From: Nevskia sp.
Lineage (GTDB): Bacteria > Pseudomonadota > Gammaproteobacteria > Nevskiales > Nevskiaceae
Direction of reading: 5' to 3'
NCBI GenBank assembly: GCA_031291075.1
Contig: JARLJS010000046.1
Coordinates: 2,386-66,385, forward strand
Length of the DNA: 64,000 nt
Shown here: positions 20,101 to 42,947 of the stretch, piece by piece
Position numbering within the stretch: position 1 is the first letter of the stretch
Layout of the letters: the number at the start of each line of letters is the position of its first letter
Translations under genes and position numbers: made by a program
The notes under the pieces: generated by a model
What the model was told of the DNA's origin: nothing
Seen by the model: the letters and a program-made list of their open reading frames with translations, nothing else
Databases searched by the model: none

Positions 20101-20103
20101 ATC

Positions 20104-20157
20104 TTGTGGCTGAATACAGGCGGCCTTATAATCATTCCGGCGTTTAGGAATGATTAT
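20104..20157 (+). promoter_or_regulatory. Sigma70 promoter with overlapping operator for the DUF433-PIN operon
   Basis: TTGTGG (20104-09), 17-bp spacer, TATAAT (20127-32); perfect IR ATAATCATTCC-N8-GGAATGATTAT (20128-20157). Confidence 0.75.
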
Positions 20158-20173
20158 TTGCCGGGTGACCGAT

Positions 20174-26144: not shown

Positions 26145-26603
26145 ATGGGAAGGAAGCGCTGTGCATCCTGCGGCCAGCCGTTTCGGCCGCGCCCCCATAT
26201 TCCGCAACAGCGATACTGCCCGGAACCCGCCTGCCAGCGCGAACGTCGCCGACAATGGCAGCAGACCAAACGCCTGCGCGATCCCGAGTATCGGGACAAC
26301 GAAGCGAAGGCCCGACGCGCCTGGGGCCAACGAAATCCGGACTACTGGCGCGATTACCGCCGCTCGCATCCCGAGTATGTCGCCCGCAACCGGGCCGGGC
26401 AAAGCCTTCGCAACGGTAATCGGCGCGGCGGCCTGATTGCAAACGGGGACGCGAGAACGCGTGATTCCCGTGTCCCTTCAGGCATCTATCAGCTGCGCCC
26501 CGTGGCGGCGTTTATTGCAAATGGGGACGTATGTACGGTTGAAATCGTTCTACTTTCAATTGGAACCGCCTTTTCGCCTCATTGCAAAGAGAGAACTTTA
26601 TAG
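26145..26603 (+). CDS. Arg-rich hypothetical protein with CxxC...CxxxxC zinc-binding-like motif
   Basis: 'RCASCGQPF...QRYCPEPAC'; lies directly upstream of the serine recombinase. Confidence 0.65.
   Translation: MGRKRCASCGQPFRPRPHIPQQRYCPEPACQRERRRQWQQTKRLRDPEYRDNEAKARRAWGQRNPDYWRDYRRSHPEYVARNRAGQSLRNGNRRGGLIANGDARTRDSRVPSGIYQLRPVAAFIANGDVCTVEIVLLSIGTAFSPHCKERTL
26436..26596 (+). repeat. Three ATTGCAAA-initiated direct repeats
   Basis: ATTGCAAACGGGGACG (26436), ATTGCAAATGGGGACG (26514), ATTGCAAAGAGAGAAC (26581). Confidence 0.6.
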
Positions 26604-26679
26604 GTGCTCGTTTCCGCGGCTGTTAGTGTCGATGCCTGCAAATCAGGATCGCTGCGGAGAAGACGGCGTGAGGGACAGC

Positions 26680-28248
26680 ATGGACAAATCCGGCCCAGAC
26701 GGACCCGCCGCGAAACCCGCGGCGTTCCGCGCTGCCGAGTACGTTCGGATGTCGACCGAACACCAGCAATACTCGACCGAGAACCAGGGCGACGCGATTC
26801 GCGAGTACGCCGCCCGGCGCGGCATCGAAATCGTCCGCACTTACGCCGACGCCGGCAAAAGCGGCCTGCGGATCGACGGCAGACAGGCCCTGCAGCGGCT
26901 GATCCGGGATGTCGAAGCCGGTACCGCCGATTTCCAGATCATCCTGGTCTACGACGTCAGTCGCTGGGGACGGTTTCAGGACGCCGACGAGAGCGCGTAT
27001 TACGAGTACATCTGCCGCCGTGCTGGCATCCAGGTGGCCTACTGTGCCGAGCAATTCGAGAACGATGGCTCCCCGGTGTCTACCATTGTCAAAGGAGTCA
27101 AACGCGCCATGGCCGGCGAATACAGCAGGGAGCTGTCGGCCAAGGTCTTTGCCGGCCAGTGCCGGCTGATCGAGCTCGGGTACCGGCAGGGCGGTCCGGC
27201 CGGCTACGGCTTGCGACGGGTCCTCGTCGACCAGCACGGGGATATCAAGGCCGAATTGACTCGCGGCGAGCACAAAAGCCTGCAGACCGACCGAGTCATT
27301 CTGGTGCCGGGTCCCGACGTCGAGGTCGACATCGTCAATCGCATCTACCGGTGGTTCATCGACGATGGATTGGTCGAGTCCGGAATCGCCCAGCGCCTGA
27401 ATGATTTGAAAGTGCTCACCGACCTGGGACGAAGCTGGACCCGTGCCACCGTACACGAGGTTCTTACCAACGAAAAATACATCGGCCACAACGTCTACAA
27501 CCGGACGTCGTTCAAGCTCAAGAAGCTGCGGGTGGTGAATGCTCCCGACATGTGGATTCGGAAGGAAAGCGCCTTCGCGGCTATCGTTCCGCCGGCGGTG
27601 TTCTATACGGCGCAAGGTATTATCCGAGCGCGAGCGCGCCGCTACAGTGACGAGGAACTGATCGAGCGGCTGCGCACCTTGCACCAGCAGCACGGCGTCT
27701 TGTCCGGCCTGATCATCGACGAAACGGACGGCATGCCCTCCTCGTCCGTTTACGCCCATCGCTTCGGCAGCCTGATCCGGGCCTATGAGAGGGTCGGCTA
27801 TATGCCGGACCGGGATTACCGTTACCTGGAGGTCAATCGGATTCTCCGGCGCCTGTATCCGGACATCGTCGCCCAAACCGAGCGGCAGATCGCCGACGTG
27901 GGCGGCGGAGTTGTTCGGGACGCGGCCACCGACCTGCTGCGGGTCAACGGCGAGTTTGACGTGTCGTTGGTACTGGCCCGCTGCCACAACGTGGGATCGG
28001 GAGGAAGCCGATGGAAGGTCCGCTTCGATACGGGTCTGGCACCGGACATCACCGTGGCGGTCCGGCTCAACGACACCAACCAGGCGCCGCTCGATTATTA
28101 CTTGTTGCCGCGTCTCGATTTCGGGACCGGACGTCCCGGCCTGCGACTGGCGGACGACAACCCGATCGAATACGAGAGCTATCGCTTCGACACCCTGGAC
28201 TATTTATATGGAATGGCCGAGCGCGCACGGCTACGCAAGGCCGCATGA
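26680..28248 (+). CDS. Large serine recombinase family protein
   Basis: 'AAEYVRMSTEHQ' (catalytic Ser), 'YDVSRWGRFQ', recombinase domain 'GG.AGYGLRR', 'NEKYIG'. Confidence 0.92.
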   Translation: MDKSGPDGPAAKPAAFRAAEYVRMSTEHQQYSTENQGDAIREYAARRGIEIVRTYADAGKSGLRIDGRQALQRLIRDVEAGTADFQIILVYDVSRWGRFQDADESAYYEYICRRAGIQVAYCAEQFENDGSPVSTIVKGVKRAMAGEYSRELSAKVFAGQCRLIELGYRQGGPAGYGLRRVLVDQHGDIKAELTRGEHKSLQTDRVILVPGPDVEVDIVNRIYRWFIDDGLVESGIAQRLNDLKVLTDLGRSWTRATVHEVLTNEKYIGHNVYNRTSFKLKKLRVVNAPDMWIRKESAFAAIVPPAVFYTAQGIIRARARRYSDEELIERLRTLHQQHGVLSGLIIDETDGMPSSSVYAHRFGSLIRAYERVGYMPDRDYRYLEVNRILRRLYPDIVAQTERQIADVGGGVVRDAATDLLRVNGEFDVSLVLARCHNVGSGGSRWKVRFDTGLAPDITVAVRLNDTNQAPLDYYLLPRLDFGTGRPGLRLADDNPIEYESYRFDTLDYLYGMAERARLRKAA

Positions 28249-29147
28249 GCCCGACACCTCAGACCGGGGAGTTGCGGATGATTCCGGTGGACCGGATCGA
28301 GGTGCTTAATCCGCGCGAGCGCAAAGCCCGCGTGTTCGATACGATCGTCGACAACATTAAAACCATCGGTCTGAAGAAGCCGATCACTGTCACCCCGCGC
28401 CAAGCATCGGATGGCGGTGAGCGCTACTTGCTGGTTTGCGGTGAAGGGCGACTAAAAGCGTTCAAGGCGCTTGGCGAACCGGCAATTCCAGCGCTGGTGG
28501 TGTCGGTGAGCGACGAGGACGCATTCATCATGAGTCTCGTTGAAAATATCGCGCGCCGCCAGTTTCGCCCTTTGGAACTGCTTGCCGGCATCGTGGCGCT
28601 GCGCGACCAGGGTTACAGCCCGAAGGTCATTGCCACCAAGACGGGGCTGACGCCCGAGTACGTGTACGGCATTCTGAACCTGCTGAAGCAAGGCGAGGAG
28701 CGTTTACTGATCGCAGTCCAGAGCGGCAGGGTTCCCTTGTATGCCGCCTTGTCCATCGCCGGTGCCGGAGAATGCGACAAAGCGATTCAGGTGGCACTGC
28801 AGGATGCCTACGAATCCGGGAATTTGCGCGGCAGGCAGTTGATTGAGGCACGACGGCTTATCGAGCGGCGGCGCACCCTGGGGCGATCGGCCGCCCGGAA
28901 CACGCGCCGCGTACAGACGGATGTCACGCCTTCGAGCCTGGTCCGAACTTATCAGAAAGAGGTCGAGCGACAGAAAACGCTGGTGAAGAAGGCTGAGTTT
29001 GCGCAGCAGCGTCTGCTCTTCATTGTCGGCGCTTTTCGCGAACTGCTGGCCGATGAGCATTTCGTTACCCTGCTCCGCGCCGAACGTCTCGACACCTTGC
29101 CCAAATACTTGTCTGAGCGCATTGCGGCGATGGGGCATCCAGGATGA
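28245..29147 (+). CDS. ParB/RepB/Spo0J-like protein
   Basis: 'IGLKKPI.V', 'LVCGEGRL.A', 'SLVENIAR'; the start overlaps the recombinase stop. Confidence 0.88.
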   Translation: MSPTPQTGELRMIPVDRIEVLNPRERKARVFDTIVDNIKTIGLKKPITVTPRQASDGGERYLLVCGEGRLKAFKALGEPAIPALVVSVSDEDAFIMSLVENIARRQFRPLELLAGIVALRDQGYSPKVIATKTGLTPEYVYGILNLLKQGEERLLIAVQSGRVPLYAALSIAGAGECDKAIQVALQDAYESGNLRGRQLIEARRLIERRRTLGRSAARNTRRVQTDVTPSSLVRTYQKEVERQKTLVKKAEFAQQRLLFIVGAFRELLADEHFVTLLRAERLDTLPKYLSERIAAMGHPG

Positions 29148-30025
29148 GCGGTGTTTCGCTCGGCTTTTCCCTGGAACCGCTGGTATTGCCGTTCACCCGC
29201 ATCCTGCCGTCGCGGCAAATACCGGAGGGGCTCGTCGGCTCGCGGAAATTCCAGCAGATCAGGTCGTCGATCGAAACAATCGGTTTGATCGAGCCGTTGT
29301 CGGTGACGAAGGCAATGCAGGACTCCGATCAGCATCTGTTGCTGGACGGCCACACCCGTCTTGTCGTGCTGCGCGATCTCGGCCATGCCGAAGTGCCGTG
29401 CCTGGTGGCCACCGACGACGAAGGCTATACCTACAACAACCGGATCAACCGGCTGCCGTCGGTCCAGGAGCATCTGATGATCCGGCGCGCCGTGGCACGC
29501 GGCGTGTCGCCGGACCGGCTGGCCCAGGCGCTCAGCGTCGATGTACGAACCATCGGCAAGAAGCTGTCGCTGCTGGAAGGAATCTGCCCGGAAGCCGTGG
29601 AGCTGCTGAAGGACCGGCAGTTCACATCGGACATTTCCCGCGTGCTGCGCAAGATGAAGCCGATTCGACAGGTCGAATGCGTGGAACTTATGGTGTCGGC
29701 CAATACCATCACCGTCGCCTATGCCGAAGCGATGCTGGTGGCGACGCCGGACAATTTGCTGGCTGAGGGCAAGAAGCCCCGGAAGCTGAACGGCGTCACG
29801 CCGGAACAGATGGCTAGGATGGAACGTGAAATGTCCAATCTCCAGGGGCAGTACAAGATGGCAGAGCAGACCTATGGATTGGATGTCCTGAACCTGGTCC
29901 TGGCGCGAGGGTATCTGGCCAAACTGCTCGAGAACGCCTCCGTCGCACGGTATCTCCGCCAGCGGTACCCCGACGTGATGACGGAGTTCGAGTCGATTTT
30001 GAAGACGGCTTCGCTGGAGCAGTGA
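29144..30025 (+). CDS. Second ParB/RepB-like protein
   Basis: 'IGLIEPL.V', 'LLDGH.R', 'TYN.RINRL'; ATGA overlap with the preceding gene. Confidence 0.85.
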   Translation: MSGVSLGFSLEPLVLPFTRILPSRQIPEGLVGSRKFQQIRSSIETIGLIEPLSVTKAMQDSDQHLLLDGHTRLVVLRDLGHAEVPCLVATDDEGYTYNNRINRLPSVQEHLMIRRAVARGVSPDRLAQALSVDVRTIGKKLSLLEGICPEAVELLKDRQFTSDISRVLRKMKPIRQVECVELMVSANTITVAYAEAMLVATPDNLLAEGKKPRKLNGVTPEQMARMEREMSNLQGQYKMAEQTYGLDVLNLVLARGYLAKLLENASVARYLRQRYPDVMTEFESILKTASLEQ

Positions 30026-32704: not shown

Positions 32705-33604
32705 TCAGTCGCCGCGGACATAAACGCTGGCGACATACCGCCCTCGTCCATCCCCATGCCCAAGATCCAGCGACGTAGCCGCACGCGCCTCCCGTTCGCT
32801 CAACCCTTGCGCCATGTAAGCCGCCGCCCGCTCCTGCGCAAATGCATACCGCGCGCTATGGCTTTGGATGCCTTCGCGGTGGCAGATGTTCCGGTAGATG
32901 TTCATCGCCTGTTTCAGACTGGCGGCCGGGGTGCCATCGTCGCGGACTACCAGATGCGGCTGGCCGGTCGTTTGAAGGACGGCTTGTGCCGCTTGAATCG
33001 CAGCGAGGGCTCGATCCGGATTTGCCGGATGGACGTCTCTGGGTCGCCCACCCTTCGTCCCTTCGATTACCCGGACGAATCCGCTTTCCTTCAGCTCCCG
33101 TTCCCACCGGGACAATGTATCCGCCTGACCGGCCCGGATAGCTTCTGCTGCCCGCGCTCCGAGATGTCGCTGCAGTTCCAGGGTGGCGCCGGTCCCGGAG
33201 CGTCCAGACGTTTCCATTTTATCCTTGAACGCGTTAAAGGCTGGATCGGATAAAGGCAACTTGGTCCCGATCCGGCTGCGCTGCTCAATGCCGAGGGCTT
33301 TATTACTGTATTCCGGATTGCGGGCCAGCCCCTGCTTGCCGACCTGCTCCAGCACCGCCCGCAGATGGCTCGCTTCGTTCGCCAATGTGCCGGTGGAAAC
33401 ACCCTTGGCCATTCTTGCGGCAACAAAAGCTTTCAGATGTCTGCCGCCGATCTGGCTGGCACGCTGGATACCGTATTTCAGATCATGCATCGTCTTGGCA
33501 AATGTCTGAAACGTCGCCGTCCGTGCCTGCCGGGTCAGACTGGCTCCGCCCAGCTGGAAGCCCACCCGTTTCAGGTCGGCTTCCAATTCAGTCTTCCTGC
33601 TCAT
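32705..33604 (-). CDS. Tyrosine recombinase (integrase-domain protein lacking an obvious arm-binding domain)
   Basis: GGAGGA-like RBS before ATG 33604; catalytic set 'GARAAEA' (R), 'GTKGGRPR' (K), 'HSARY' (HxxR), 'LGHG' (H) and 'SVY' (Y). Confidence 0.85.
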   Translation of the reverse strand: MSRKTELEADLKRVGFQLGGASLTRQARTATFQTFAKTMHDLKYGIQRASQIGGRHLKAFVAARMAKGVSTGTLANEASHLRAVLEQVGKQGLARNPEYSNKALGIEQRSRIGTKLPLSDPAFNAFKDKMETSGRSGTGATLELQRHLGARAAEAIRAGQADTLSRWERELKESGFVRVIEGTKGGRPRDVHPANPDRALAAIQAAQAVLQTTGQPHLVVRDDGTPAASLKQAMNIYRNICHREGIQSHSARYAFAQERAAAYMAQGLSEREARAATSLDLGHGDGRGRYVASVYVRGD

Positions 33605-34560
33605 CCTCGATCCTCCTGTTCCAAAACATCCGACTCGGATCCCGCGTCCGGGCAATCCCGGCAGGGCTTCCCCTGCCTTGTATCCATCACGAGCGGCCGG
33701 ACGCGGTGAAGATCCGGGTAGGTGAGTTTCGTGGCCTCACAGCAGCGCGTGCCGGTGGCATGCGGTGCTGCCCTTTCACCGTTGCCGGTGTCGGGGATCG
33801 AGGCTGCCCTTTTAAAGGGCCGCTCGTGGTTGGGTGACACATCTGAGCTTCATTGCGAAGCCGAACAAGACATGCGCCCGTTGCAGGCGCTTTGAAGCCG
33901 TTTCACATGCTCGGCGCAGGTGAAAGGTCCAGTAGCGAAAGGCATTGCGCCAGTCGAAGGCTGTGCGTCACTCTCTCGGCTTCACCGAGCACAGTGACGC
34001 ACGCGTTGGGGAATGCGCCTTGGCGCAGGCCCGTAAAAGGGCCGAGCGTTGGCGCACGACATGCATCGTGATGTGGATTGCCGCAGGAAATGCGGCAGCC
34101 GACTCATCATCGTCCGAGTCAGCGGATCATCGAAGTTGGGCGTGATGCCCAGGTGTCGAACAAGGACCAAAGCCCTTACGGGCGGGCGGCGCTTCCCAGT
34201 CCATCAGCCGCCTCGGGTGCCTGCGAGCAGGCGGGGTGCGACGATACCCTCGTCGCCGGGGATGAAAGCGTCTTCCGCTCAGGCTCCTTCAATCGAGCTT
34301 GAGCGGAAAACGCCTTCCGCCGCGACCGGCTCTGCCTGGCCGCAGATTACTGGCGGACGCATTGCGCCATTGAATTCCGCTTGCACTCCTCAACGAGGTG
34401 CAGTGAAGCCAAATCAAAACAAAGCTGCCTTGAAGTATGGACCGAGCCCTATGGGCACGCAGCTCTTCCCGATCCGATAAGCTGCTTGAGCAAAATAGTG
34501 GCCACGAGCGTGCGCATTCGCAAGTCGGCATGACGGCCGATTCCTGGAGATTCCTGGACC
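33605..34560 (-). ncRNA. Candidate large structured RNA/leader (or ssDNA-structured origin) upstream of the recombinase
   Basis: No credible ORF; more than 15 hairpins, with GNRA loops and G-U pairs that favour the minus strand. Confidence 0.55.
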
Positions 34561-34573
34561 TTCCTGCGTTATA
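34541..34573 (-). promoter_or_regulatory. Putative -10 box followed by three phased CAGGAA repeats
   Basis: TATAAC (34573-34568, minus strand), then TTCCTG at 34561, 34551 and 34541 (10-bp period). Confidence 0.5.
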
Positions 34574-34630
34574 GCCTGTCTGGGCTGGCGGCTGCGGCGC
34601 GCGCGCAAAATCGCGCATGATCGGCGGCGC

Positions 34631-34930
34631 TCAACAATGTTTCAAGACACGCGCCCAAGCTTCGCGCTCGGCCTCGTCGCGGCTCAGGCCGCCGTCAAAC
34701 TCCATGATGGCCGCCCGTTCCTCGAAATCCTCACGCATGGCGTCAGTGATCGGCATCTGTGCGAGCATCGTCGTGCCGGCCGGCGACACATTGTCTGGTG
34801 ACGTTGCAGCCGTTGCAGACGTGCAATCCGCTGAGCGCGCACATTTCGACGTTACGCCGGCCGTTGCGGGTGACGTTGCAGCCGTCGCAGGGCTGGCTGC
34901 CAGCCAAGCAGCCAGCACATCAACGCCCAT
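34631..34930 (-). CDS. Small hypothetical protein overlapping the primase stop
   Basis: ATG 34930 overlaps the primase end; C-terminal 'FEERAAIMEFDGGLSRDEAE', a motif I associate with phage/satellite primase neighbours. Confidence 0.6.
   Translation of the reverse strand: MGVDVLAAWLAASPATAATSPATAGVTSKCARSADCTSATAATSPDNVSPAGTTMLAQMPITDAMREDFEERAAIMEFDGGLSRDEAEREAWARVLKHC
34799..34890 (-). repeat. TGCAACG-type repeat block A (inverted partner of block B)
   Basis: Reverse complement aligns ungapped to 36650-36741, 62/92 identical, with identity concentrated at both ends. Confidence 0.75.
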
Positions 34931-37664
34931 GGTCGGCTCCCAGTTTGTCAGCACGGATCGGGTACAAGCGCATCGCACGCCCACTGATACGTAGTGGCCG
35001 AGCGCGCTCGCCGCCATCGGGTGCCGGCAGCGCACCGGCCGCCTGCAAGACGTCCAGCGCGCGTTTGAAGTCAAAACCCCGCAGGGCCTCTCGCATGCCG
35101 TCGGAGCTGAACAGGTAGACCCGGCCCGCGCCGCCCTCGTCACGCCACCAGCCGGCACGATCGCGCACGATCGTGTCGGCGAGCGCGTCGGCGCAGGAAA
35201 AGCGCGCATCGCCGTGGCGTTCGATGAAGGCCGACACCTGCTCCAGAATCTGCCGGCGCTCATCATTACCGCGCCCGCGTTGCGCATGCCAGGCGCGGAA
35301 CCCCTCAGCCGCTGCCGCGATCGCCTCGCCGCGAGGCCAGCCGGAGATTCCATACTCGGTCGTCAGTTCGCCCGCCAGAGCCAATAGCGCGAAGCGTGCC
35401 GCCGCGCGCTTGTCCTGTCCCTCGGCGTCGCCGGGGCAAAATTCGGGGCGCGCCTTGATCGACTCCAGCAGAGCGGAACAATCGCCGCCGTCGCGGGCCA
35501 GCCGGTGCAGGAAGGCGCGGCCGGCGTATCCGTAGTGGGTTGCCGCCGCCAGCCGGATCGCATCGGAAAATGCAGTACCGCTCACCATACCATGCAGCTC
35601 GTCCCAGGCACCAAAGCGTCGGGTCGCCGGCACGTCCAACAGCCGGACCGATTGCCCGGCCTTCGCACGGTGTCCGCCTTCGGCCATGGTGGTGGCGATG
35701 GTGCGCTCACCACTGGAAAGCACGATGCAGCGCCAGCGGGTGACGCTGCGGGCGCCGCCGGATCGGGTCGCCCGCTGCTTGCCTTGTCCGTTGCCCAGGG
35801 TATAGACGATGGCGCCGACTTCGCGCGGGTCGCACTCGCTGATTTCATCCAGCGCCAGCAGCCCGTCATTGAATAATGCCGCGGCGCCTTCCATGCCGTT
35901 GGCAGTGGCACGCCAGCTCCGCCGGAAGCTCGGGCCGCCCCAGGTCGAGCAGGCGGCATCGATGGCGGTCGTCTTGCCGGTGGAGGAGTCGCCGACCAGA
36001 TGAATGCCTCCGCTTTCGGCCTTGCACCGGTCGAGCAGCGGCCCGGCAAACGAGGCCGATAGTGCCAGCACCAGCAGCGGATTGCCGACCGAGCGCGCAG
36101 CGATCTCGGCCTGCCAGCCGGCCAGAGTGCCGCCGGTAGTGTGCTCGGCGTGTCCGCGCTCGCTGGACTGGAACGTGACGTCCGATGCCGACGGGCCGAT
36201 CACTTCGTCCGGCAGGACATAGGAATCGCCACACCAGCCCACTTGCGTGGCGCAGCGCATTCGCCGCTGCGGTGCCTTCTGCAGCAGGTATTGGCCCAAC
36301 AGGCGATGCGACAGCAGGTCGATTTCCAGCCCCATCGCCAACAGCTCCGCGCGCAACTCGTCGCCCTTGCCGCTCAGCAGTTCCATGGGCATTGCCCAAT
36401 CGCGCCAGCGCCCGGACGTATTGCGGAACCGCAGCAGCCGGCCGTAATTGTTGTCCTGCGCGTCGAAGGTCACGGCATCCACGTACAGAGGGCCGGACAC
36501 CCATTGCTGGATCGGCGTCGGCGACGTCTTTTCGGTGCCGGGCTTCAGGCCGAAATACCAGACGCCCGGCCGATATTGGGCGCCCTTGTCAGCGTGCCAG
36601 TCCTCGAATACGCAGAATCTTGGCCGGTCTTCCAGGGTGGGAATGCCGGGCGCAACGCCTGCAACGTCTCCCGGTGCTTCGGACGTAATGGCGGAAGCCT
36701 CGTCATTGCTGGACTGCACGTCTGTAACGCCCGCAACGTCAGAATGGATCATTGCGGCTTCGAGTGTCCTTTCAATGATTGAGCGCACGCTTTCCGGCCC
36801 GCGCGCGGCCGCCTGATCGTTGAAGTCGGTCGCCCCATCCTGCCGTTCGCGCCCGAAGTCGGGCAGTGCCACCAGCCCGCCGACAGCACGCGCCGCCTCG
36901 CTAGCCTTCGTCAATCCCGGATTGCCTTCGGTCGTGGTGTCGTCGTCGGCGCACAGAACCAGCGGCAAGCTGGGGAATCGTTCGCGCATTGCCTTGGCCA
37001 CGGACAGCAGGTTGCCGGAGTTGAACGCCACAGCCACGGGCCGGCCGGTTGCCTCATGCACGGTCGCACCCGTGGCGAAGCCCTCGGCGATGCACAGGGC
37101 GGCGGTGCCTTCAACGGCGCCAATGATGAAGTGGCAGCCGGCCATGCTGCCGCCGGGAAGAAAGCGCTTTCCGCCGTCCGGTGCAATGAATTGTAGGGAA
37201 AGCAGTTCGTCTCCAACGCGAGCCGGCGCGATCAATCGCCCACCCCTCGTTCGGAGTCCGTGCGGTTTCACTCCCTTGGCGACCAGGTAGGGATGATCGG
37301 CCGTCGCCGGCATTGCCGCGTTCCAGATTTCGGCCGCCTTGCGCGCAGCAGCCGCGCGACGCCGTGCTTCCCTGGTTTCGCGCTCGCGGCGTATCGCTTC
37401 GACCCTGGCGTGTTGGTCAGTTTCTTCGGCCGCGGTCAGGGTCCGCCCAATGTCTGCCCGCCAGGTGTCCGCGGTGCCGCTACGCCAGTCGCCGTAGGCG
37501 CCGGCGGGGATGCGGTCATTGTGAAAGACGTACCAGCCGGCATCGTCGCCGCGCTTGCCGTTACTGGCGAAGCGGTGCAGTTTGCCGTCCGGCTCGATCA
37601 CGTCCGGCGGATTCAGCCCCGCTGCCAGGATCGCATCGCGGAACTGGGCGATGGGATCGCGCAT
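34920..37664 (-). CDS. Primase-helicase replication protein (Toprim + DUF927 superfamily-3-like helicase)
   Basis: 'IAEGFATG' and 'CADDD' Toprim motifs; 'GDSSTGKT' Walker A, 'LDEI' Walker B, 'SSGE'. Confidence 0.9.
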   Translation of the reverse strand: MRDPIAQFRDAILAAGLNPPDVIEPDGKLHRFASNGKRGDDAGWYVFHNDRIPAGAYGDWRSGTADTWRADIGRTLTAAEETDQHARVEAIRRERETREARRRAAAARKAAEIWNAAMPATADHPYLVAKGVKPHGLRTRGGRLIAPARVGDELLSLQFIAPDGGKRFLPGGSMAGCHFIIGAVEGTAALCIAEGFATGATVHEATGRPVAVAFNSGNLLSVAKAMRERFPSLPLVLCADDDTTTEGNPGLTKASEAARAVGGLVALPDFGRERQDGATDFNDQAAARGPESVRSIIERTLEAAMIHSDVAGVTDVQSSNDEASAITSEAPGDVAGVAPGIPTLEDRPRFCVFEDWHADKGAQYRPGVWYFGLKPGTEKTSPTPIQQWVSGPLYVDAVTFDAQDNNYGRLLRFRNTSGRWRDWAMPMELLSGKGDELRAELLAMGLEIDLLSHRLLGQYLLQKAPQRRMRCATQVGWCGDSYVLPDEVIGPSASDVTFQSSERGHAEHTTGGTLAGWQAEIAARSVGNPLLVLALSASFAGPLLDRCKAESGGIHLVGDSSTGKTTAIDAACSTWGGPSFRRSWRATANGMEGAAALFNDGLLALDEISECDPREVGAIVYTLGNGQGKQRATRSGGARSVTRWRCIVLSSGERTIATTMAEGGHRAKAGQSVRLLDVPATRRFGAWDELHGMVSGTAFSDAIRLAAATHYGYAGRAFLHRLARDGGDCSALLESIKARPEFCPGDAEGQDKRAAARFALLALAGELTTEYGISGWPRGEAIAAAAEGFRAWHAQRGRGNDERRQILEQVSAFIERHGDARFSCADALADTIVRDRAGWWRDEGGAGRVYLFSSDGMREALRGFDFKRALDVLQAAGALPAPDGGERARPLRISGRAMRLYPIRADKLGADHGR
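36650..36741 (+). repeat. TGCAACG-type repeat block B inside the primase-helicase linker
   Basis: GCAACGCCTGCAACGTC ... CTGCACGTCTGTAACGCCCGCAACGTCA. Confidence 0.75.
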
Positions 37665-37690
37665 CCTCGGCGCCCCGCAATCGCCGGAGA

Positions 37691-37930
37691 TCAGATAGTG
37701 GTACGTGCCTGCGCCGTGCTGGTGGCACGGCCCTGGTTCAGCCAAGCATCCAAATCCGCCTTGAAGTAGAACACCTTACCGCGCTTCACGAAGGCCGGGC
37801 CGACGCCGGAGCAGCGCATCATCGCCAGCGTCTTCTCGGATAGGCCGACATAGGCCGAGGCGCTCTTGGCGGTCATGCGGCCATCGGGAAACATCCTGAC
37901 TTCAACAGTTTTTTCGGGAATCGACGACAT
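37691..37930 (-). CDS. Excisionase/AlpA-like small HTH protein
   Basis: 'A.AYVGLSEKTL..MR..G.GPAFVK.GKV.Y...DLD.WL'. Confidence 0.85.
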   Translation of the reverse strand: MSSIPEKTVEVRMFPDGRMTAKSASAYVGLSEKTLAMMRCSGVGPAFVKRGKVFYFKADLDAWLNQGRATSTAQARTTI

Positions 37931-38060: not shown

Positions 38061-38618
38061 ATGGCAGAACCCATGAGAAAGCGCAAAGCGAGCGGACCCC
38101 GTACAGAGGTCTTTGGCTTGCGCCTTGATCCAAAACTCAAGTACCTGGCCGAATTGGCGGCGCGCAAGCAGCGCCGCTCGCTGGCCAATTTCCTCGAATG
38201 GTCTCTGGAGCACGCACTCAAGGAGGTACCGCTGCGCGAGGCGGTCGAAGGACAACCCGCGCGGTCTGTCGTCGACGAGGGCGCTAAATTGTGGGATCTG
38301 GACCCGCCTTTGCGGCTCGTGAAATTGGCCAAGAACTATCCAGACCTGCTCACCTACGAAGAGCAAATCATCTGGAAAGCCATGGAGGAAATCCGGGTGT
38401 CCGCCTTTTCTGGCTTTAACAGAGATCGGGAGGAGATAATCAAGGTTCGGGCACTGATTGCGGACGACAAAAATAAAACCGTGGAACTCGAAGCGCTGAA
38501 GCGCTGTTGGTCAATGCTGGAAGCATTCGCGCGCGGAGATATTTCAGAAGCCTCACTGAAACGGGAGATCCAAAACAGCTTCGAACCCCTGCCTGTCGGG
38601 AGGCCTCCCCATGGCTAA
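38061..38618 (+). CDS. Putative regulator with N-terminal ribbon-helix-helix-like motif
   Basis: 'VFGLRLDPKLKYLAELAARKQRRSLANFLEWSL'; overlaps the integrase start. Confidence 0.65.
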   Translation: MAEPMRKRKASGPRTEVFGLRLDPKLKYLAELAARKQRRSLANFLEWSLEHALKEVPLREAVEGQPARSVVDEGAKLWDLDPPLRLVKLAKNYPDLLTYEEQIIWKAMEEIRVSAFSGFNRDREEIIKVRALIADDKNKTVELEALKRCWSMLEAFARGDISEASLKREIQNSFEPLPVGRPPHG

Positions 38619-39822
38619 AGCATTCAACAGGCTCACCCGAATCGCCATGCGCAAGCTATCGGCCGGCGGCAAGCTCAACGAGCACGGGATCACCTTCGAG
38701 CGTCTGGCCGACGGCGACGGCGTGTTTACCGTCAATGTGATGGTCGACGGCCTGCGGATTCACCGCGTCGTCGGACGCGAGTCGGACGGCGCAACGCGCA
38801 CCCAGGCGGAGGAGTTCATTGCACAGGCTCGCAACGATGCCAGGCACGACCGCCTCGCCCTGCCCAGGGGCCGCAAGCTGGCGCTGAGCTTCGAGGACGC
38901 CGCCCACAAGTATTTGCAGAAGCTCGCGGAAGAAGGTGGACGGAACGTCAACAAGAAGCGCACGCAGCTGGAGCTTCACCTGATTCCTTTCTTCGGCATG
39001 ATGCCGCTGTCCAAGATCACAACCTCCGATGTTGAGCGATACAAGAAGCATCGCCAGGAGCAGCACGCCATCAAGAGCAATGCGCTCAATAAGGGCTGCA
39101 CCTTCAAGGATGCCGCCCCCTCCGCCGGCACGGTCAACCGGGAGCTGGCGGCGCTTTCTCATTTGTTCAGCAAGGCAGTCGAATGGGCATGGCTGGATCG
39201 GCGCCCGGCGAAAATCAACCGGCTGCGGGAGGAAAGCGGCCGCATCACTTACCTCACCATCGAACAGGTCGCGCAACTAAAGGAATGTGCGAAAGCGGAC
39301 AGCAGCGAACTGATTTATCCGTTCATCGTCATCGCGTTGGGATCGTCGATGCGAAAGATGGAAATCCTGCGACTGCGCCGCGAGCATGTCGACACGGCGC
39401 GCCGCGTGCTCTACATCCCGAAGGCCAAGGCCGGTGCCCGCGAGCAGCCGATCACGGACGAGACCGCGGAGTTTCTTGAGGCGTACGTGCAGGCGCTGCC
39501 GCCGGGCACGCCGTGGCTGTTTCCGTCGCCTGGCGCGAAGGATGGACATGCGATCGACATCCGCAAGCCTTTCATCCGCGTTGTCGTCGCAGCCGGGCTT
39601 GATCCCAAGGTGGTTGTTCGTCACACGCTGCGGCATACTGCGATCACACATCTGGTGCAGGCTGGCGTCGACCTGCCAACCGTGAAGCGGGTCAGCGGGC
39701 ACAAGACGCTCGCGATGGTCGAGCGCTATTCCCACCAGAATGGCGCGCATATTCAGAGTGCGATGGATAAGCTGGAAAGCCGTTTATCGTCGATCGCACG
39801 CGAACGAAAAATCTCCGTCTGA
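38611..39822 (+). CDS. Tyrosine recombinase/integrase
   Basis: 403 aa; 'SMRKMEIL.L', 'KAG', 'HTLRHT', 'SGHKT..M..RYSH'. Confidence 0.95.
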   Translation: MAKAFNRLTRIAMRKLSAGGKLNEHGITFERLADGDGVFTVNVMVDGLRIHRVVGRESDGATRTQAEEFIAQARNDARHDRLALPRGRKLALSFEDAAHKYLQKLAEEGGRNVNKKRTQLELHLIPFFGMMPLSKITTSDVERYKKHRQEQHAIKSNALNKGCTFKDAAPSAGTVNRELAALSHLFSKAVEWAWLDRRPAKINRLREESGRITYLTIEQVAQLKECAKADSSELIYPFIVIALGSSMRKMEILRLRREHVDTARRVLYIPKAKAGAREQPITDETAEFLEAYVQALPPGTPWLFPSPGAKDGHAIDIRKPFIRVVVAAGLDPKVVVRHTLRHTAITHLVQAGVDLPTVKRVSGHKTLAMVERYSHQNGAHIQSAMDKLESRLSSIARERKISV

Positions 39823-40192: not shown

Positions 40193-40248
40193 GGGGGGGC
40201 AGGCGGACAGCTAACGGCACGCCCCCCGTGCTTTGCACGAGGCGGCGG

Positions 40249-42219
40249 ATGGAATTTCTCGGAAACTTACCGATTCAGGCGACCGTGCCGGCGGGCGCGC
40301 TGATTTTTTTCCTCCTCATATTCGTGCTGCTATTCTTGCGGCCAGCGGCCGTTCGAGGATGGCGCCTGGGCCAGGCCATTCGGCTTTTGCGAAAAGAAGG
40401 GTCGGACGACAAAGAGGTGCTCGGCAGCATCTTCGAGCGCGACACGATCCTCTCGGCCGCTTGGAAGGAGTTCAAGGACACCCTGCACCAGCCGAAGGAA
40501 ATGGACGGCGCTGGCACCTGGCGCCCGGGCACAAAGGTCTGGTCGACCGTCCCGGCCGAGATGTTCTTCAGCGAGCAGGTCCTGGTCAACAGCCCCCTTC
40601 GCACCGAATTCTTCAAGCACCTGCCCGGAATTTTTACCGGCATCGGCATCATCGGGACATTCTGGGGACTCATCGTCGGACTCCAGGCGTTCCAGGTGTC
40701 GGAGTCCCCCCAGGTAGCGCGGGACAGCCTGAATGGGTTGGTCAACGGCGTCTATCACGCCTTCGAGATCTCCGGGTCAGCCATCGCGCTGGCAATCGCC
40801 GTTACATTCGTCGAGAAGTGGTTGGTCAGTGGCCTCTACAAGCAGGTAGAGCGTCTCTGCCAAGCAATCGACGCCCGATTTGAGAGCGGCGCCGGCGAGG
40901 AGTACCTCCATCGGCTGGTCAACGCCTCGGAGGCATCGGCCAAGGAGGCTCGCCAGCTCAAGCAATCCCTGGTGAGCGACTTGAAGGAAATCCTCCAGAA
41001 CCTCACCGAACGCCAGATCCAGGCCCAGAACACCTCCTCGGCCGCGATCGCCGAGAAGATCGTCGGCGGACTCCAGGAAAGCCTCCGAGGCCCGCTGTCC
41101 GACATCGGCGAGGCCGTGAAGCACGTGTCGAGCAATCAGGGCGACGCGGTAAACCGCCTCCTGACCGACACCATGTCGGCGTTCATTTCCAAGATCAACG
41201 AGCTGTTTGCCGGGCAGATCGACGGGATGCGCGGCTTGCAACAGCATGCCATTGAGAGCCTCGCCGGCACCGTTGGCCGCCTGGAGCAGCTAGTTGGTGA
41301 CATCTCATCCAAGGGGCAGCAGACCACGGAGACGATGACGTCGCAGTTGGCCGCGGCCCTGGCCTCAATGGAAGAGCGCCAGCGGGCGCTGAACGAGCAG
41401 AGTCAGGCGCTGCTCGACTCGATCCGCAGCCAGAACGTTCAGGCCCAACAGGACGCCAGCAAGAGCATGCAGGAAGCCATCGACCGGATGACAGCCAGCA
41501 TCGCCCAGGTGACCGAAGCCCTGGGTGCGAGCATCCAGAGCGCGGCCAGCCGCGACGAACAACGCACCCGGGCTCTGGCCGACCATGCCACGGCGACGAC
41601 GAGCAACCTGTCGACAATCACCCAGGAGTTGATCAAGCGCACGGAGGAGGCGGTCATCACCATGCGCCAGGCCGTGGAGACCATGCGCACTGGCACGTCC
41701 GAGACCGTCACTAAAATGAACATGGGCGCCGCGGACATGCTCAAAGCGGCCTCGGAAATGGCCCAGGCCGGCCGCGAGACCGGCACCGCCCTGCAACGGG
41801 CGCAGGCACTCACCGAGCAGCTCTCTAATGCCTCCGGGGCCCTGACCACATCGAGCTCGCAGCTCAGCCGTGCGATCGACGATTACAAGGTGACACGCGA
41901 CACCTTGGCAACGATGATCGAGCAACTGAGGGCAACGGTCGATTCGGCCAAGCGGGAAGCGTCGCTGACCGCAGACATCCTCCAGCGCATCGAGCAGTCG
42001 GCGCAGCACCTGAAGGAAGCTGAAACTCAGGCTGACTCTTATCTGAAGGGCGTGTCGGACGTCTTGCAGGAAGCCCACAACCAGTTCGGCACCCAGGTGA
42101 TCGGAACGCTGGAGAAGATCAACGGCCAGTTCCACAACGACCTGGATCGCGCGACGCGCTCTCTCTCCAGTGCCATCGATGAACTTGGCAACGTGCTAGA
42201 CAAGGTCGGAGTCCAGTAA
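40249..42219 (+). CDS. zorA: Zorya membrane protein ZorA (MotA-like N-terminus + long helical tail)
   Basis: Three TM segments ('PGIFTGIGIIGTFWGLI.GL', 'F..S..AI'), then a long heptad-like tail; directly upstream of an OmpA/MotB gene. Confidence 0.9.
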   Translation: MEFLGNLPIQATVPAGALIFFLLIFVLLFLRPAAVRGWRLGQAIRLLRKEGSDDKEVLGSIFERDTILSAAWKEFKDTLHQPKEMDGAGTWRPGTKVWSTVPAEMFFSEQVLVNSPLRTEFFKHLPGIFTGIGIIGTFWGLIVGLQAFQVSESPQVARDSLNGLVNGVYHAFEISGSAIALAIAVTFVEKWLVSGLYKQVERLCQAIDARFESGAGEEYLHRLVNASEASAKEARQLKQSLVSDLKEILQNLTERQIQAQNTSSAAIAEKIVGGLQESLRGPLSDIGEAVKHVSSNQGDAVNRLLTDTMSAFISKINELFAGQIDGMRGLQQHAIESLAGTVGRLEQLVGDISSKGQQTTETMTSQLAAALASMEERQRALNEQSQALLDSIRSQNVQAQQDASKSMQEAIDRMTASIAQVTEALGASIQSAASRDEQRTRALADHATATTSNLSTITQELIKRTEEAVITMRQAVETMRTGTSETVTKMNMGAADMLKAASEMAQAGRETGTALQRAQALTEQLSNASGALTTSSSQLSRAIDDYKVTRDTLATMIEQLRATVDSAKREASLTADILQRIEQSAQHLKEAETQADSYLKGVSDVLQEAHNQFGTQVIGTLEKINGQFHNDLDRATRSLSSAIDELGNVLDKVGVQ

Positions 42220-42222
42220 GCC

Positions 42223-42942
42223 GTGATCGGCAATCGCATCATCATCAAACGCGGTTCCCGCGACGAAGGCGAGAAGCCTTTCTGGATCTCGTTCTCGGAC
42301 CTGATGAGCGCGCTCATGGTGCTGTTCCTCGTTGCGATGACCGTTGCGCTGCTGGCGGTGACGAAGACAGTGTCGGATGTGGAAAAGGCCAAGGCGCAGC
42401 GCGAGGCAGACATCACCAAGCTGCTCCAGGAGGTCCAGCAGGCCGCCTCCGCCTTCCCCGGTGTAACCGTGGACCTGAACCGCCATATCATCGATTTCGG
42501 GGACCGCGCCCGCTTCGACTCCAGGAGCAATCAGCTCACCAGCGAGCAGGCCAGGCTGCTTCGGGCATTCATACCCCGAGTGCTGGCGGTGGTGCGCGAC
42601 GAGCTGGCCTCACGGTGGCTCAAGCAGATCGTGGTGGAGGGATTCACCGACCAGCGCGGGTCGTATCTCTACAATCTCAACTTGTCGCTCAATCGCAGCC
42701 AGCGCGTTCTGTGCGTACTGCTGGCCACGCCGTTTTCGGATGAGACACCCCTGACCGCCGATGAGCAGGAGCAAATCCGCGACCTGTTCCTGGTGGGAGG
42801 TTACAGCTTCAACTCGGCCAAGGCCAGCCTGGAAGAGAGCCGGCGCGTGGAGATGCGCCTAGAATTCCTCGACTTGGACGAACAGCGGTCCAGCACCGCC
42901 GGCATCCCTCGCGGCAACTTCGGTAGCTGTTCGATCGGGTAG
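42223..42942 (+). CDS. zorB: Zorya protein ZorB (MotB/OmpA-like)
   Basis: 'FWISFSDLMSAL' (TM Asp), 'EGFTD..G.Y..NL.LS..R', 'SRRVE'. Confidence 0.92.
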   Translation: MIGNRIIIKRGSRDEGEKPFWISFSDLMSALMVLFLVAMTVALLAVTKTVSDVEKAKAQREADITKLLQEVQQAASAFPGVTVDLNRHIIDFGDRARFDSRSNQLTSEQARLLRAFIPRVLAVVRDELASRWLKQIVVEGFTDQRGSYLYNLNLSLNRSQRVLCVLLATPFSDETPLTADEQEQIRDLFLVGGYSFNSAKASLEESRRVEMRLEFLDLDEQRSSTAGIPRGNFGSCSIG

Positions 42943-42947
42943 CGACT

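What the first reader, a model, noticed from the sequence alone, without database searches (positions are those of the whole stretch)
32705..34620. Tyrosine recombinase preceded by a ~950-nt, densely structured, strand-polarised non-coding leader
No credible ORF lies between a putative -10 box (34573-34568) and the recombinase RBS, yet hairpins tile the interval. They include an 18-bp stem (34264-34317), GCGACGA/TCGTCGC (34238-56), GCCC-GTAA-GGGC (34172-83), GACTC/GAGTC (34101-20) and GCCGCA/TGCGGC (34080-96). There is also a nested TGCGTCACT/AGTGACGCA stem (33964-34001), GCGCCTG/CGGGCGC (33874-90), GGCTTC/GAAGCT (33845-62), CACCG-GCAA-CGGTG (33777-90) and GGCAGGG/CCCTGCC (33660-77). GNRA loops and G-U wobbles in three stems favour the minus strand, the same strand as the recombinase, which implies selection on single-stranded structure. 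The recombinase keeps R-K-HxxR-H-Y but has no obvious arm-binding domain, and the element already has a separate integrase. Hypotheses: (a) a large ncRNA partner of the recombinase (an RNP, possibly RNA-guided); (b) an oriT or single-strand origin for a tyrosine-recombinase-type relaxase, as with SGI1 MpsA; (c) a long regulatory leader.
Basis: partly seen in the sequence, partly recalled or inferred. Interest (0 to 1): 0.82.

Follow-up and report, generated by a model that had tools for sequence, protein, structure and literature searches.

The report
Structured leader before relaxase-like recombinase gene
About 700 non-coding bases upstream of an MpsA-type (tyrosine-recombinase-like) mobilisation gene form a conserved, covarying, pseudoknotted structure that includes a hairpin shared by the whole gene family; it resembles the transfer-origin-plus-small-RNA module so far described only in Salmonella Genomic Island 1.

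Summary
All ten hairpins exist. The interval 34330-33629 (minus strand) folds far better than shuffles (z = -6.7 and -5.0), whereas 34331-34630 and coding controls do not (z near 0). So the structured part is about 700 nt, not 950. The same element lies upstream of about 25 homologous genes (56-77% protein identity) whose other neighbours differ. Covariation is strong: in the 3' domain 31 of 94 pairs change on both sides, against 18.8+-2.3 in shuffles; in the 5' domain 13 of 33, against 4.9. Two covarying helices cross, which implies a pseudoknot. No ORF is conserved and no Rfam family matches.

The protein is Pfam Integrase_1 + Phage_int_SAM_2. The Burrus laboratory uses Integrase_1 as the signature of the SGI1 relaxase MpsA (MOB_M). 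One hairpin, GCGTCACT...AGTGACGC, lies 290-600 nt upstream of the gene in 82 of 93 loci, down to 31% protein identity.

Best reading: a mobilisation module. The hairpin is the oriT core. The 250-nt domain between it and the gene is a strand-specific structure (G-U:A-C = 104:34), probably RNA, positioned like SGI1's essential sgm-sRNA. RNA versus transferred-strand DNA is unresolved, and nothing indicates RNA guidance. I file it as a new variant of a known kind.

The parts
32705..33604 (-). Gene for a 299-aa tyrosine-recombinase-like protein (Phage_int_SAM_2 + Integrase_1), a putative MOB_M/MpsA-type relaxase
   Evidence: Pfam E = 2e-23 and 1.3e-15. 909 homologues. R146/R151, K184, H249, R252, H283 and Y295 are invariant. 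The AF2 model's best PDB matches are lambda Int, Cre, XerA and Tn1549 Int.
33611..33617 (-). Shine-Dalgarno AGGAGGA, 6 nt before the ATG; lies outside the conserved structure
   Evidence: Read from the sequence. This stretch is variable in alignments A3 and A4.
33642..33890 (-). 3' structured domain. Hairpins Pa (33890-33874) and Pb (33862-33845). Pc (33828-33820 with 33696-33688) encloses Pd, Pe (33804-33800 with 33738-33734), Pf (33796-33771) and Pg (33770-33740). Py is 33677-33660. Pz (33706-33697 with 33651-33642) crosses Pc, giving a pseudoknot.
   Evidence: For the whole A4 structure, which also includes the two family-wide hairpins (HP1 and HP2): 94 pairs, 93.9% paired, 31 pairs with changes on both sides against 18.8+-2.3 in shuffles (0/500), and 12-17 in slid controls. 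G-U:A-C = 104:34 and z = -6.7. CM R1 finds it only in the clade with 56% or more protein identity, plus a weak hit in L035.
33721..33734 (-). Nearly invariant stretch CCACGAAACTCACC, unpaired in the model, after Pe
   Evidence: Invariant columns in A4 and A7.
33963..34002 (.). HP1, the family-wide hairpin GTGCGTCACT...AGTGACGCAC with a covarying inner stem; putative oriT core and relaxase site
   Evidence: An exact GCGTCAC...GTGACGC lies 290-600 nt upstream of the gene in loci down to 31% identity. With at most one mismatch per arm it is in 82 of 93 loci and 0 of 82 downstream controls. It shows no strand polarity.
33901..33925 (.). HP2, a second inverted repeat (TTTCAC/GTGAAA here; TGTCAC/GTGACA or CTGACA/TGTCAG or TGACGC/GCGTCA in relatives) whose arms resemble those of HP1; tentative
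   Evidence: (I13), helix 3, the CTGACAC motif. Perfect 6-nt arms occur in 13 of 56 loci against 4 of 56 controls.
34020..34028 (-). Invariant CTGCGCCAA box, one of several CTGCNNCAA / GCAA(C/T) repeats; GCAAY also sits in the loops of Pa, Pb and Pf
   Evidence: Invariant in A3 and A4. GCAA[CT] occurs 5 times on the minus strand against 1.3+-1.15 expected; 2-7 per 3' domain against 0-1 on the other strand.
34138..34256 (-). 5' structured domain: P1 (34256-34238), P2 (34232-34219), P3 (34212-34207 with 34190-34185), P3b (34202-34198 with 34169-34165, a possible pseudoknot), P4 (34183-34172), P5 (34150-34138). Optional: replaced by unrelated sequence in L108 and L111.
   Evidence: 33 pairs, 90% paired, 13 with changes on both sides against 4.9+-1.4 (0/500). 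z = -5.05. Absent from L108 and L111.
34080..34120 (-). Variable hairpins GACTC/GAGTC (window-specific) and GCCGCA/TGCGGC (3' half conserved as CTGCGGCAA)
34257..34324 (-). P0, a long imperfect hairpin followed by a short U-rich tract; terminator-like; present and covarying only in a subgroup (window, L001, L022, L025, L028, L105, L106, L112)
   Evidence: I1: 30-nt arms, 80% complementary; alignments A3 and A6.
34617..34645 (-). Sigma-70-like promoter match TTGAAA-17-GATCAT; possible start of a leader transcript (inferred)
   Evidence: The only match in 33500-35000; 0.2 expected in shuffles. Not conserved in relatives.

Best explanation
This is the mobilisation module of an integrative mobilisable element. 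It has three parts: a transfer origin, a structured non-coding domain, and the gene for a tyrosine-recombinase-type (MOB_M, MpsA-like) relaxase. HP1 (33963-34002), probably together with HP2 and the CTGCNNCAA boxes, is the DNA site that the relaxase recognises and nicks. The 250-nt pseudoknotted domain between HP1 and the gene (33890-33642), with the optional 5' domain, is made on the gene-sense strand. It is most likely the 5' part of the relaxase transcript, possibly processed into a stable RNA, and acts together with the relaxase during transfer, as sgm-sRNA does in SGI1. Shown: conservation, covariation, absence of coding, linkage to the gene, protein family and fold. Inferred: relaxase activity, oriT function, transcription, and any RNA-protein partnership.
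For: Protein: PF12835 + PF12834. PF12835 is the signature used for MpsA-type relaxases (PMC10484663). MOB_M relaxases are reported to be abundant in chromosomes and 96% lie near an integrase (preprint); here integrases flank the gene in the window and in relatives. An 8.1-kb plasmid carries Rep, ParA, a toxin-antitoxin pair, a separate Xer-like recombinase and this gene behind an 850-nt gap. Only the upstream region is co-conserved with the gene. HP1 is family-wide and unpolarised, as expected for a DNA site. The 3' domain covaries, is pseudoknotted, favours the gene strand (G-U:A-C 104:34, z -6.7 against -4.9) and lies where the sgm-sRNA core lies, between oriT and mpsA on the same strand within a 650-700-nt primary transcript. 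P0 parallels the terminator-like hairpin near the 5' end of that transcript. A distant enterobacterial clade has its own conserved non-coding leader with a covarying long-range helix, and RNA-seq assemblies cover that leader.
Against: There are no transcript data for this organism: the metatranscriptomes of the same study do not cover the 10-kb region at all. The RNA-seq support comes from a relative with 31-33% identity, from contigs without strand information. I could not compare the element with the SGI1 sequence, so homology to sgm-sRNA is untested. No mpsB-like gene is present; instead the protein has a fused N-terminal domain. Strand polarity is only about 3:1 per cell, is not corrected for phylogeny, and is absent from the 5' domain. 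One A.C mismatch in Pg is invariant, and it would be a G-U pair on the other strand. G-T wobbles are also tolerated in single-stranded DNA. No helper T4SS is visible in the window.
Confidence: 0.45

Rival explanations
1. The structure is a cis-acting 5' UTR of the relaxase mRNA. It controls translation, stability or termination, for example through autoregulation by the relaxase or by sensing a helper-derived signal, and has no role in trans.
For: It lies on the same strand immediately upstream of the gene, with no conserved terminator between structure and ATG. Pe and a GTGAG/CTCAC pairing are mutually exclusive and both invariant, which could act as a switch. In the E. coli-like relative, RNA contig depth falls from about 40-58 over the leader to about 5-7 in the gene.
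Against: The conserved structure ends 38 nt before the ATG, and the RBS region is variable and unpaired. About 650 nt with two pseudoknots is far larger than known leaders. In SGI1 the equivalent RNA is needed even when MpsAB is supplied in trans.
Confidence: 0.2
2. The structure forms in single-stranded DNA of the transferred strand. It would be an extended oriT used for relaxosome assembly or termination, or a single-strand initiation or priming signal used in the recipient.
For: Covariation is equally expected for DNA hairpins. HP1 and HP2 look like DNA sites with protein-specific arms. The GCAAY motif displayed on three hairpin loops suggests sequence-specific protein contacts. SGI1-like oriT loci conserve three stem-loops.
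Against: Known oriT cores are about 50-150 bp (125 bp in SGI1). A 250-nt multi-helix pseudoknotted domain that is clade-specific, while HP1 is family-wide, fits a separate module better. The abundance of G-U is more typical of RNA.
Confidence: 0.2
3. The protein is a true site-specific recombinase and HP1 is its recombination site, either a resolution site or a folded single-strand substrate like an integron attC.
For: The catalytic residues are complete and a core-binding domain is present. HP1 has conserved inverted arms around a variable centre, as attC sites do.
Against: The spacer is 12-28 nt, variable in length and self-complementary, unlike double-stranded core sites. These elements and the small plasmid already carry another integrase or Xer-like recombinase. 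No second copy of HP1 exists in the window.
Confidence: 0.08
4. The RNA guides the recombinase to DNA by base pairing, in the manner of a bridge RNA.
For: Only the juxtaposition of a recombinase gene with a large structured non-coding element.
Against: No variable loops flanked by conserved stems with complementarity to element ends or to HP1 were seen. The variable parts (Pf, P6) are closed hairpins. The enzyme class differs from the recombinases encoded by IS110-family elements (from my own knowledge). The SGI1 precedent does not involve base pairing with oriT.
Confidence: 0.03

Closest known systems
SGI1 mobilisation module: oriT, sgm-sRNA and mpsA/mpsB (Kiss 2019, PMC6414798; Nagy 2021, PMC9299015)
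   Same: A tyrosine-recombinase-like gene of the PF12835 type. A GC-rich oriT bearing inverted repeats lies a few hundred bp upstream. An essential non-coding RNA is encoded between oriT and the gene on the same strand, as part of a 650-700-nt primary transcript with a terminator-like hairpin near its 5' end. Both sit in integrative mobilisable elements next to an integrase.
   Different: No mpsB here; the N-terminal SAM-like domain is fused to the protein. Different hosts (the closest named relatives are Steroidobacteraceae and Nevskia). The element here is defined by covariation across about 25 loci and is pseudoknotted, whereas the published sgm-sRNA structure is a prediction only. I could not test sequence homology to SGI1's oriT or sRNA. 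No function has been shown here.
MOB_M (tyrosine-recombinase-like) relaxases TcpM (pCW3) and MobK (pIGRK), and the oriT_rM regions of the 2026 preprint 10.64898/2026.01.13.699239
   Same: The catalytic domain has R-K-H-R-H plus Y. The oriT is taken to be the first large intergenic region upstream of the gene. They are usually mis-annotated as integrases, lie near a real integrase, and often occur in elements without a T4SS.
   Different: Per PMC8152469, MobK, TcpM and MpsA lack a core-binding domain; this protein has one. No RNA or covarying structure has been reported for those systems in the papers I searched.
Integron attC / IntI and CTX-phage attP / XerCD (from my own knowledge)
   Same: A tyrosine-recombinase-family enzyme with a site made of conserved inverted arms around a variable, self-pairing centre, which implies recognition of a folded strand.
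   Different: Those are recombination substrates, present in two or more copies or paired with a chromosomal partner. Here there is a single copy, fixed upstream of the gene.
Bridge RNA of IS110-family elements (from my own knowledge)
   Same: A structured non-coding RNA encoded next to a recombinase gene.
   Different: A different enzyme class. Bridge RNAs have guide loops complementary to target and donor; none are seen here.

Membership tests
Tyrosine recombinase superfamily | Two-domain fold (core-binding plus catalytic) | tested here: met
   AF2 model with pLDDT 74.7. Top Foldseek PDB hits are lambda Int, Cre, XerA and Tn1549 Int, at probability 1.0 but TM only 0.36-0.46. Sequence search of PDB finds nothing.
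Tyrosine recombinase superfamily | Catalytic R, K, HxxR, H and the nucleophilic Y | tested here: met
   R146/R151, K184, H249, R252, H283 and Y295 are invariant in 16 homologues. Assignment of each residue to its catalytic role is by order and motif, not by structural superposition.
Pfam Integrase_1 (PF12835), used as the MpsA-type 'INT_DTR_like' signature | Score above the Pfam gathering threshold | tested here: met
   83.4 bits against a cut-off of 23; PF12834 at 58.1 against 22. The link from PF12835 to MpsA comes from PMC10484663. The MpsA sequence itself was not scanned here.
MOB_M relaxases (CONJscan profile of the 2026 preprint) | Score of at least 84 on the MOB_M HMM | not testable with these tools
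MOB_M relaxases | Site-specific nicking of a cognate oriT and a requirement for conjugative mobilisation | not testable with these tools
   Experimental.
SGI1-type mob module | Separate MpsB accessory protein encoded downstream of mpsA | tested here: not met
   No small SAM-like ORF follows the gene. The next gene is a convergent YhcG nuclease. The N-terminal SAM_2 domain is fused instead.
SGI1-type mob module | GC-rich oriT with inverted repeats upstream of the relaxase gene | tested here: inconclusive
   HP1 (7-10-bp GC-rich perfect arms) lies 360-400 nt upstream and is family-wide. oriT activity and identity with SGI1's IR1 were not tested.
sgm-sRNA | Non-coding RNA encoded between oriT and the relaxase gene on the gene strand | tested here: inconclusive
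   Position, strand preference and absence of coding fit. There is no transcript evidence for this organism.
sgm-sRNA | Sequence or structure similarity to the SGI1 sRNA core | not tested
   No SGI1 sequence could be obtained. Not in Rfam.
Any Rfam 15 family | Covariance-model match | tested here: not met
   The gathering scan of the window finds only tRNA-Phe. The E-value scan of 33500-34750 gives only a chance miRNA hit at 23.5 bits against a cut-off of 100.
RNA-guided recombinase (bridge-RNA type) | Variable guide loops complementary to target or donor DNA | tested here: not met
   Variable segments are closed hairpins and no such loops are seen in A4 or A6. Element ends were not mapped, so the test is partial.

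The most novel reading that the evidence does not exclude
MpsA-type (PF12835) relaxases act as ribonucleoproteins. A large, pseudoknotted RNA transcribed from the oriT-proximal leader is an obligate subunit of the relaxosome. It is clade-specific in sequence but present across the family, and SGI1's sgm-sRNA is one diverged example. This would be the first structured-RNA class with a direct role in conjugative DNA processing.
Probability: 0.27. Interest if true: 0.85.

Novelty: new variant of a known kind. Interest (0 to 1): 0.66.

Why it matters
MOB_M relaxases were recently reported to be the commonest relaxases in the chromosomes of six bacterial species surveyed, among them E. coli, Salmonella, Klebsiella, Pseudomonas aeruginosa and Vibrio cholerae. 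How they work is unknown, as is the reason SGI1 needs a small RNA for transfer. This locus supplies two things that were missing.

1. It gives a comparative, covariation-supported structure for a non-coding element in the sgm-sRNA position: about 25 sequences, more than 40 compensatory pairs and a pseudoknot. This provides precise helices to mutate and to restore.
2. It gives an invariant-armed hairpin (GCGTCACT/AGTGACGC) upstream of PF12835 genes across Gamma- and Betaproteobacteria, including islands in E. coli, Salmonella and Klebsiella. It is a candidate universal oriT core, which could be used to find relaxase-less 'oriT-only' islands.

If the structure proves to be only a leader or a DNA origin, it still defines a new non-coding family that is absent from Rfam.

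Tried and rejected
- **Rfam:** the gathering and E-value scans found nothing relevant.
- **Direct DNA similarity:** blastn of the region against plasmids found no match.
- **Hidden ORF in the gap:** rejected. Stop-free stretches are not conserved in position, indels break the frame, and gene callers see nothing. In distant clades a conserved SD-like AAAGGAGAA is not followed by a conserved start codon or ORF.
- **Conserved gene neighbourhood:** the primase, AlpA and integrase are not co-conserved with the gene.
- **RNAalifold on both strands:** it does not settle the strand by itself, because it predicts different extra helices on each strand. A pairing of CCGCUCGCGAUGG with the Py flank predicted was dropped in favour of Pc, which covaries.
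- **H1 pairing** (CTGCGCCA with TGGCGCA): left out, because it has 8 C.C mismatches and no covariation.
- **Transcript evidence:** the metatranscriptomes from the same study have no coverage of the whole 10-kb region, so they are uninformative. Raw-read RNA runs with the same species label as the E. coli-like relative lack the island.
- **Getting SGI1 or SGI-4 sequence:** this failed. The Salmonella hits are small tRNA-Asn islands or plasmids, a sequence-string search in papers returned only primers, and the supplement listing PF12835 is not held.
- **CM search for the 3' domain** in loci with 31-50% protein identity: only one weak hit, L035, E = 0.07.
Full report
**What is there.** The ORF 32705-33604 (minus strand, ATG at 33604, preceded by AGGAGGA) encodes a 299-aa protein with Pfam Phage_int_SAM_2 (residues 6-93) and Integrase_1/PF12835 (residues 105-258). 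Upstream on the same strand lie a Toprim+DUF927 primase-helicase (34920-37745) and an AlpA-like HTH (37691-37930). A separate Phage_integrase gene is at 38611-39822. Between the primase region and the recombinase-like gene there is no credible ORF.

Folding energy against dinucleotide shuffles:

| Segment | z, minus strand | z, plus strand |
|---|---|---|
| 33629-34045 | -6.7 | -4.9 |
| 34030-34330 | -5.05 | -3.6 |
| 34331-34630 | +0.2 | +0.8 |
| Three coding controls | between -0.65 and +0.75 (both strands) | |

The structured element therefore spans about 34330-33629, roughly 700 nt rather than 950. Rfam has no match at gathering or E-value thresholds.

**Comparative evidence.**
- The protein has 909 homologues in the scored set; the top 120 are 63-77% identical.
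- I fetched 21 genome loci and 80 metagenome loci, plus eight contigs found by exact protein look-up.
- blastn and nhmmer show that the upstream 400-690 nt is conserved wherever the protein is at least about 56% identical. The named sources are Steroidobacteraceae, Peristeroidobacter, Steroidobacter and Nevskia; the rest are soil and bioreactor metagenomes.
- None of the flanking genes is co-conserved.
- Gene callers leave a gap of about 1 kb upstream of the gene in these contigs. The neighbours are often P4-type integrases, HTH genes, restriction or toxin-antitoxin genes.
- Three Peristeroidobacter and MAG loci (L018-L020) keep parts of the leader next to truncated copies of the gene.

**Structure.** On a 20-sequence alignment of the 3' domain (A4, window 34045-33629) I wrote a structure of 13 helices and 94 pairs.
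- 93.9% of cells are paired.
- 31 pairs change on both sides, against 18.8+-2.3 in column shuffles (0 of 500 reach the observed value) and 12-17 when the partners are slid.
- 107 cells are compensatory, against 37 in shuffles.
- The best-supported helices are Pa, Pb, Pf, Pg, the long-range Pc (33828-33820 with 33696-33688) and Pz (33706-33697 with 33651-33642).
- Pc and Pz both covary and cross each other, so the domain is pseudoknotted or switches between two folds.

The 5' domain (A6, P1-P5) has 33 pairs, of which 13 change on both sides against 4.9+-1.4 (0/500). It is replaced by unrelated sequence in L108 and L111, so it is optional. P0 (34324-34257) is a long hairpin followed by a short U-rich tract. 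It occurs only in one subgroup, where it covaries.

**Strand.**
- On the 94 pairs, G-U cells outnumber A-C cells 104 to 34 (102 to 27 without the most divergent row). Pairs with any G-U number 41, against 24 with any A-C.
- On the 92 pairs predicted identically for both strands, the count is 86 to 31.
- The z-scores are also more negative on the minus strand.
- This supports a single-stranded form of the gene-sense strand for the 3' domain, but only moderately. The counts are not phylogenetically independent. One A.C mismatch in Pg is invariant. The 5' domain shows no bias (about 17 to 16).

**A family-wide hairpin.**
- GCGTCACT...AGTGACGC (window 34002-33963) recurs 290-600 nt upstream of the gene in relatives down to 31% identity. 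These include Sterolibacterium, Desulfurivibrionaceae and Betaproteobacteria MAGs, gut-metagenome contigs, a Salmonella plasmid (L102) and E. coli ATCC 8739 (L113).
- With one mismatch allowed per arm it is present in 82 of 93 loci and in 0 of 82 downstream control windows.
- The outer 8 bp never change. The inner stem, the loop and the flanking closing pairs vary and covary, and the distance between the arms ranges from 12 to 28 nt. That rules out a conventional double-stranded core site with fixed spacing and points to recognition of a hairpin or cruciform.
- Unlike the 3' domain, this hairpin has no strand preference: 32 are more stable on the sense strand and 16 on the antisense, p about 0.05-0.08, and the G-U counts run the other way.
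- About 60-100 nt downstream, many loci carry a second inverted repeat whose arms resemble the first: TGTCAC/GTGACA, CTGACA/TGTCAG or TGACGC/GCGTCA, and TTTCAC/GTGAAA in the window. With strict criteria this is found in 13 of 56 loci against 4 of 56 controls, so it is tentative.
- Sequence similarity to distant loci stops after this region of about 150 nt.
- A covariance model of the Pc-enclosed domain finds it only in the close clade, plus one weak, correctly placed hit in L035.
- Distant clades nevertheless have their own conserved non-coding leader. In 18 enterobacterial-type loci the motifs CTGACAC, AAAGGAGAA, GATACCGAGGGG, a CCTGC/GCAGG hairpin, ACCTCAAC and a covarying long-range CCGGCGC/GCGCCGG helix are conserved, with no conserved ORF.

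**What the protein is.**
- R, K, HxxR, H and Y are invariant.
- The AlphaFold model matches lambda Int, Cre, XerA and Tn1549 integrase. PDB has no sequence-level match.
- PF12835 is the signature the Burrus laboratory uses for the atypical relaxase MpsA of SGI1 (PMC10484663).
- MpsA, MobK and TcpM form the tyrosine-recombinase-like relaxase group MOB_M (PMC8152469).
- A 2026 preprint reports MOB_M as the commonest relaxase in the chromosomes of six species. It finds 96% of them next to an integrase and often without a T4SS, and it treats the first large intergenic region upstream as the oriT.
- The contexts seen here fit that picture. They include islands beside integrases and an 8.1-kb Caballeronia plasmid that has Rep, ParA, a toxin-antitoxin pair and its own Xer-like recombinase, plus this gene behind an 850-nt gap.
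- Most plasmids carrying the family are typed 'non-mobilizable' by MOB-suite. That is what one expects if this relaxase type goes unrecognised.

**Closest precedent.**
- In SGI1 the 125-bp GC-rich oriT, which carries inverted repeats, lies about 300-430 bp upstream of mpsA.
- An essential small RNA, sgm-sRNA, is cut from the 3' end of a 650-700-nt primary transcript that runs through oriT toward mpsA. Its core of about 210-280 nt lies between oriT and mpsA. A terminator-like hairpin near the 5' end limits full-length transcription.
- The RNA is needed even when MpsAB is supplied in trans. The authors suggest that it may bind or recruit relaxosome proteins.
- The layout in the window matches this: P0, then the optional 5' domain, HP1/HP2, the 250-nt structured domain and the gene, all on one strand within about 700 nt.
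- Only three papers in the searched library mention sgm-sRNA, and none reports a conserved structure outside SGI1.

**Interpretation.** I read the locus as a mobilisation module. HP1, with HP2 and the CTGCNNCAA boxes, is the DNA origin recognised by the relaxase. The covarying 3' domain, with the 5' domain where present, is a strand-specific structure, most likely RNA, that works with the relaxase. Confidence is 0.45 for the combined statement. The family assignment and the 'cis site' reading of HP1 are firmer than the RNA-cofactor part.

The rivals are:
- a purely cis-regulatory leader (0.2);
- a structure in the transferred DNA strand (0.2);
- a recombination site (0.08);
- RNA guidance (0.03).

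**Transcript evidence is weak.** A sigma-70-like match lies at 34645-34617. The metatranscriptomes of the source study do not cover this low-abundance genome. For an E. coli-like relative (L091, 91% identical to the ATCC 8739 island), four RNA-seq assemblies contain contigs that run from upstream genes through the leader at depth 37-58. They break at different points between the hairpin and the first 160 nt of the gene, where depth falls to about 5-7. Their strand is unknown.

**Novelty and score.** The kind of system, an MpsA-type relaxase with an upstream oriT and a non-coding RNA, is known from a single element. New here are four things:
- a different clade, with a fused core-binding domain and no MpsB;
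- a much larger, pseudoknotted element supported by covariation and absent from Rfam;
- the family-wide invariant hairpin;
- evidence that distant clades carry analogous conserved leaders.

I file it as a new variant of a known kind, with interest 0.66.

Noticed in passing
window 40228-48328 (+): A four-gene block that looks like a Zorya type I defence system: a large coiled-coil/apolipoprotein-like protein, a MotB/OmpA-like protein, an EH_Signature protein and an SNF2 helicase with an Mrr nuclease domain. It lies directly after the integrase gene at 38611-39822.
   Followed up: partly
window 53036-53111 (-) and 48526-48539: tRNA-Phe. The 14-nt CTTGATTTTAATGG that overlaps its 3' end is repeated at 48526. 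This may delimit a small 4.5-kb islet (subtilase, glyoxalase-like genes) beside the Zorya/integrase block, which suggests tandem islands at tRNA-Phe.
   Followed up: partly
window 26437-30025 (+): A large serine recombinase (Resolvase + Recombinase + HNH_repeat) followed by two ParB/RepB-like genes, then an AAA_16 ATPase and a YhcG/DUF1016 PD-(D/E)xK nuclease, which converges on the relaxase-like gene.
   Followed up: no
window 34631-34750 (-): A short ORF at the end of the primase region encodes MPITDAMREDFEERAAIMEFDGGLSRDEAEREAWARVLKHC. It has no Pfam hit and ends just before the promoter-like site.
   Followed up: no
window 34539-34558: A perfect tandem duplication GATTCCTGGA x2 in the unstructured, unconserved distal part of the interval.
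   Followed up: no
A4 columns 349/361 = window 33762 and 33750: An A.C mismatch inside helix Pg is invariant in all 20 sequences. It would be a G-U pair on the opposite strand, or a protonated A+.C or a recognition feature on the sense strand.
   Followed up: no
window 33740-33721 (-): The invariant GTGAGGCCACGAAACTCACC can form either Pe (GAGGC with GCCTC) or a local GTGAG/CTCAC hairpin. Both are invariant, so covariation cannot choose between them. This could be a conformational switch.
   Followed up: no
L018 5646-6004, L019 5593-6063, L020 5264-5973: Relic copies in Peristeroidobacter genomes and a MAG. Parts of the leader, and HP1 in L018 and L019, are kept next to recombinase genes truncated to their C-terminal part. 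These may be oriT-only remnants.
   Followed up: partly
L110 950-1064: A partial, degenerate duplication of the CTGCGCCAA-HP1 segment lies about 130 nt upstream of the intact copy.
   Followed up: no
L113 (E. coli ATCC 8739) 7978-9189; L114 (S. Infantis) 20001-20855: Enterobacterial family members sit in small islands at the tRNA-Asn / amn-yeeN region, next to a decayed integrase, RHS or SIR2/ParA defence-like cargo. HP1 is present about 290 nt upstream in E. coli. 236 of 5426 complete E. coli genomes match at least part of the Salmonella query.
   Followed up: partly
A5 columns about 255-265 (e.g. L066, L082, L091): In the enterobacterial-type leaders a Shine-Dalgarno-like AAAGGAGAA is conserved about 200 nt upstream of the real start codon, with no conserved start or ORF after it.
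   Followed up: partly
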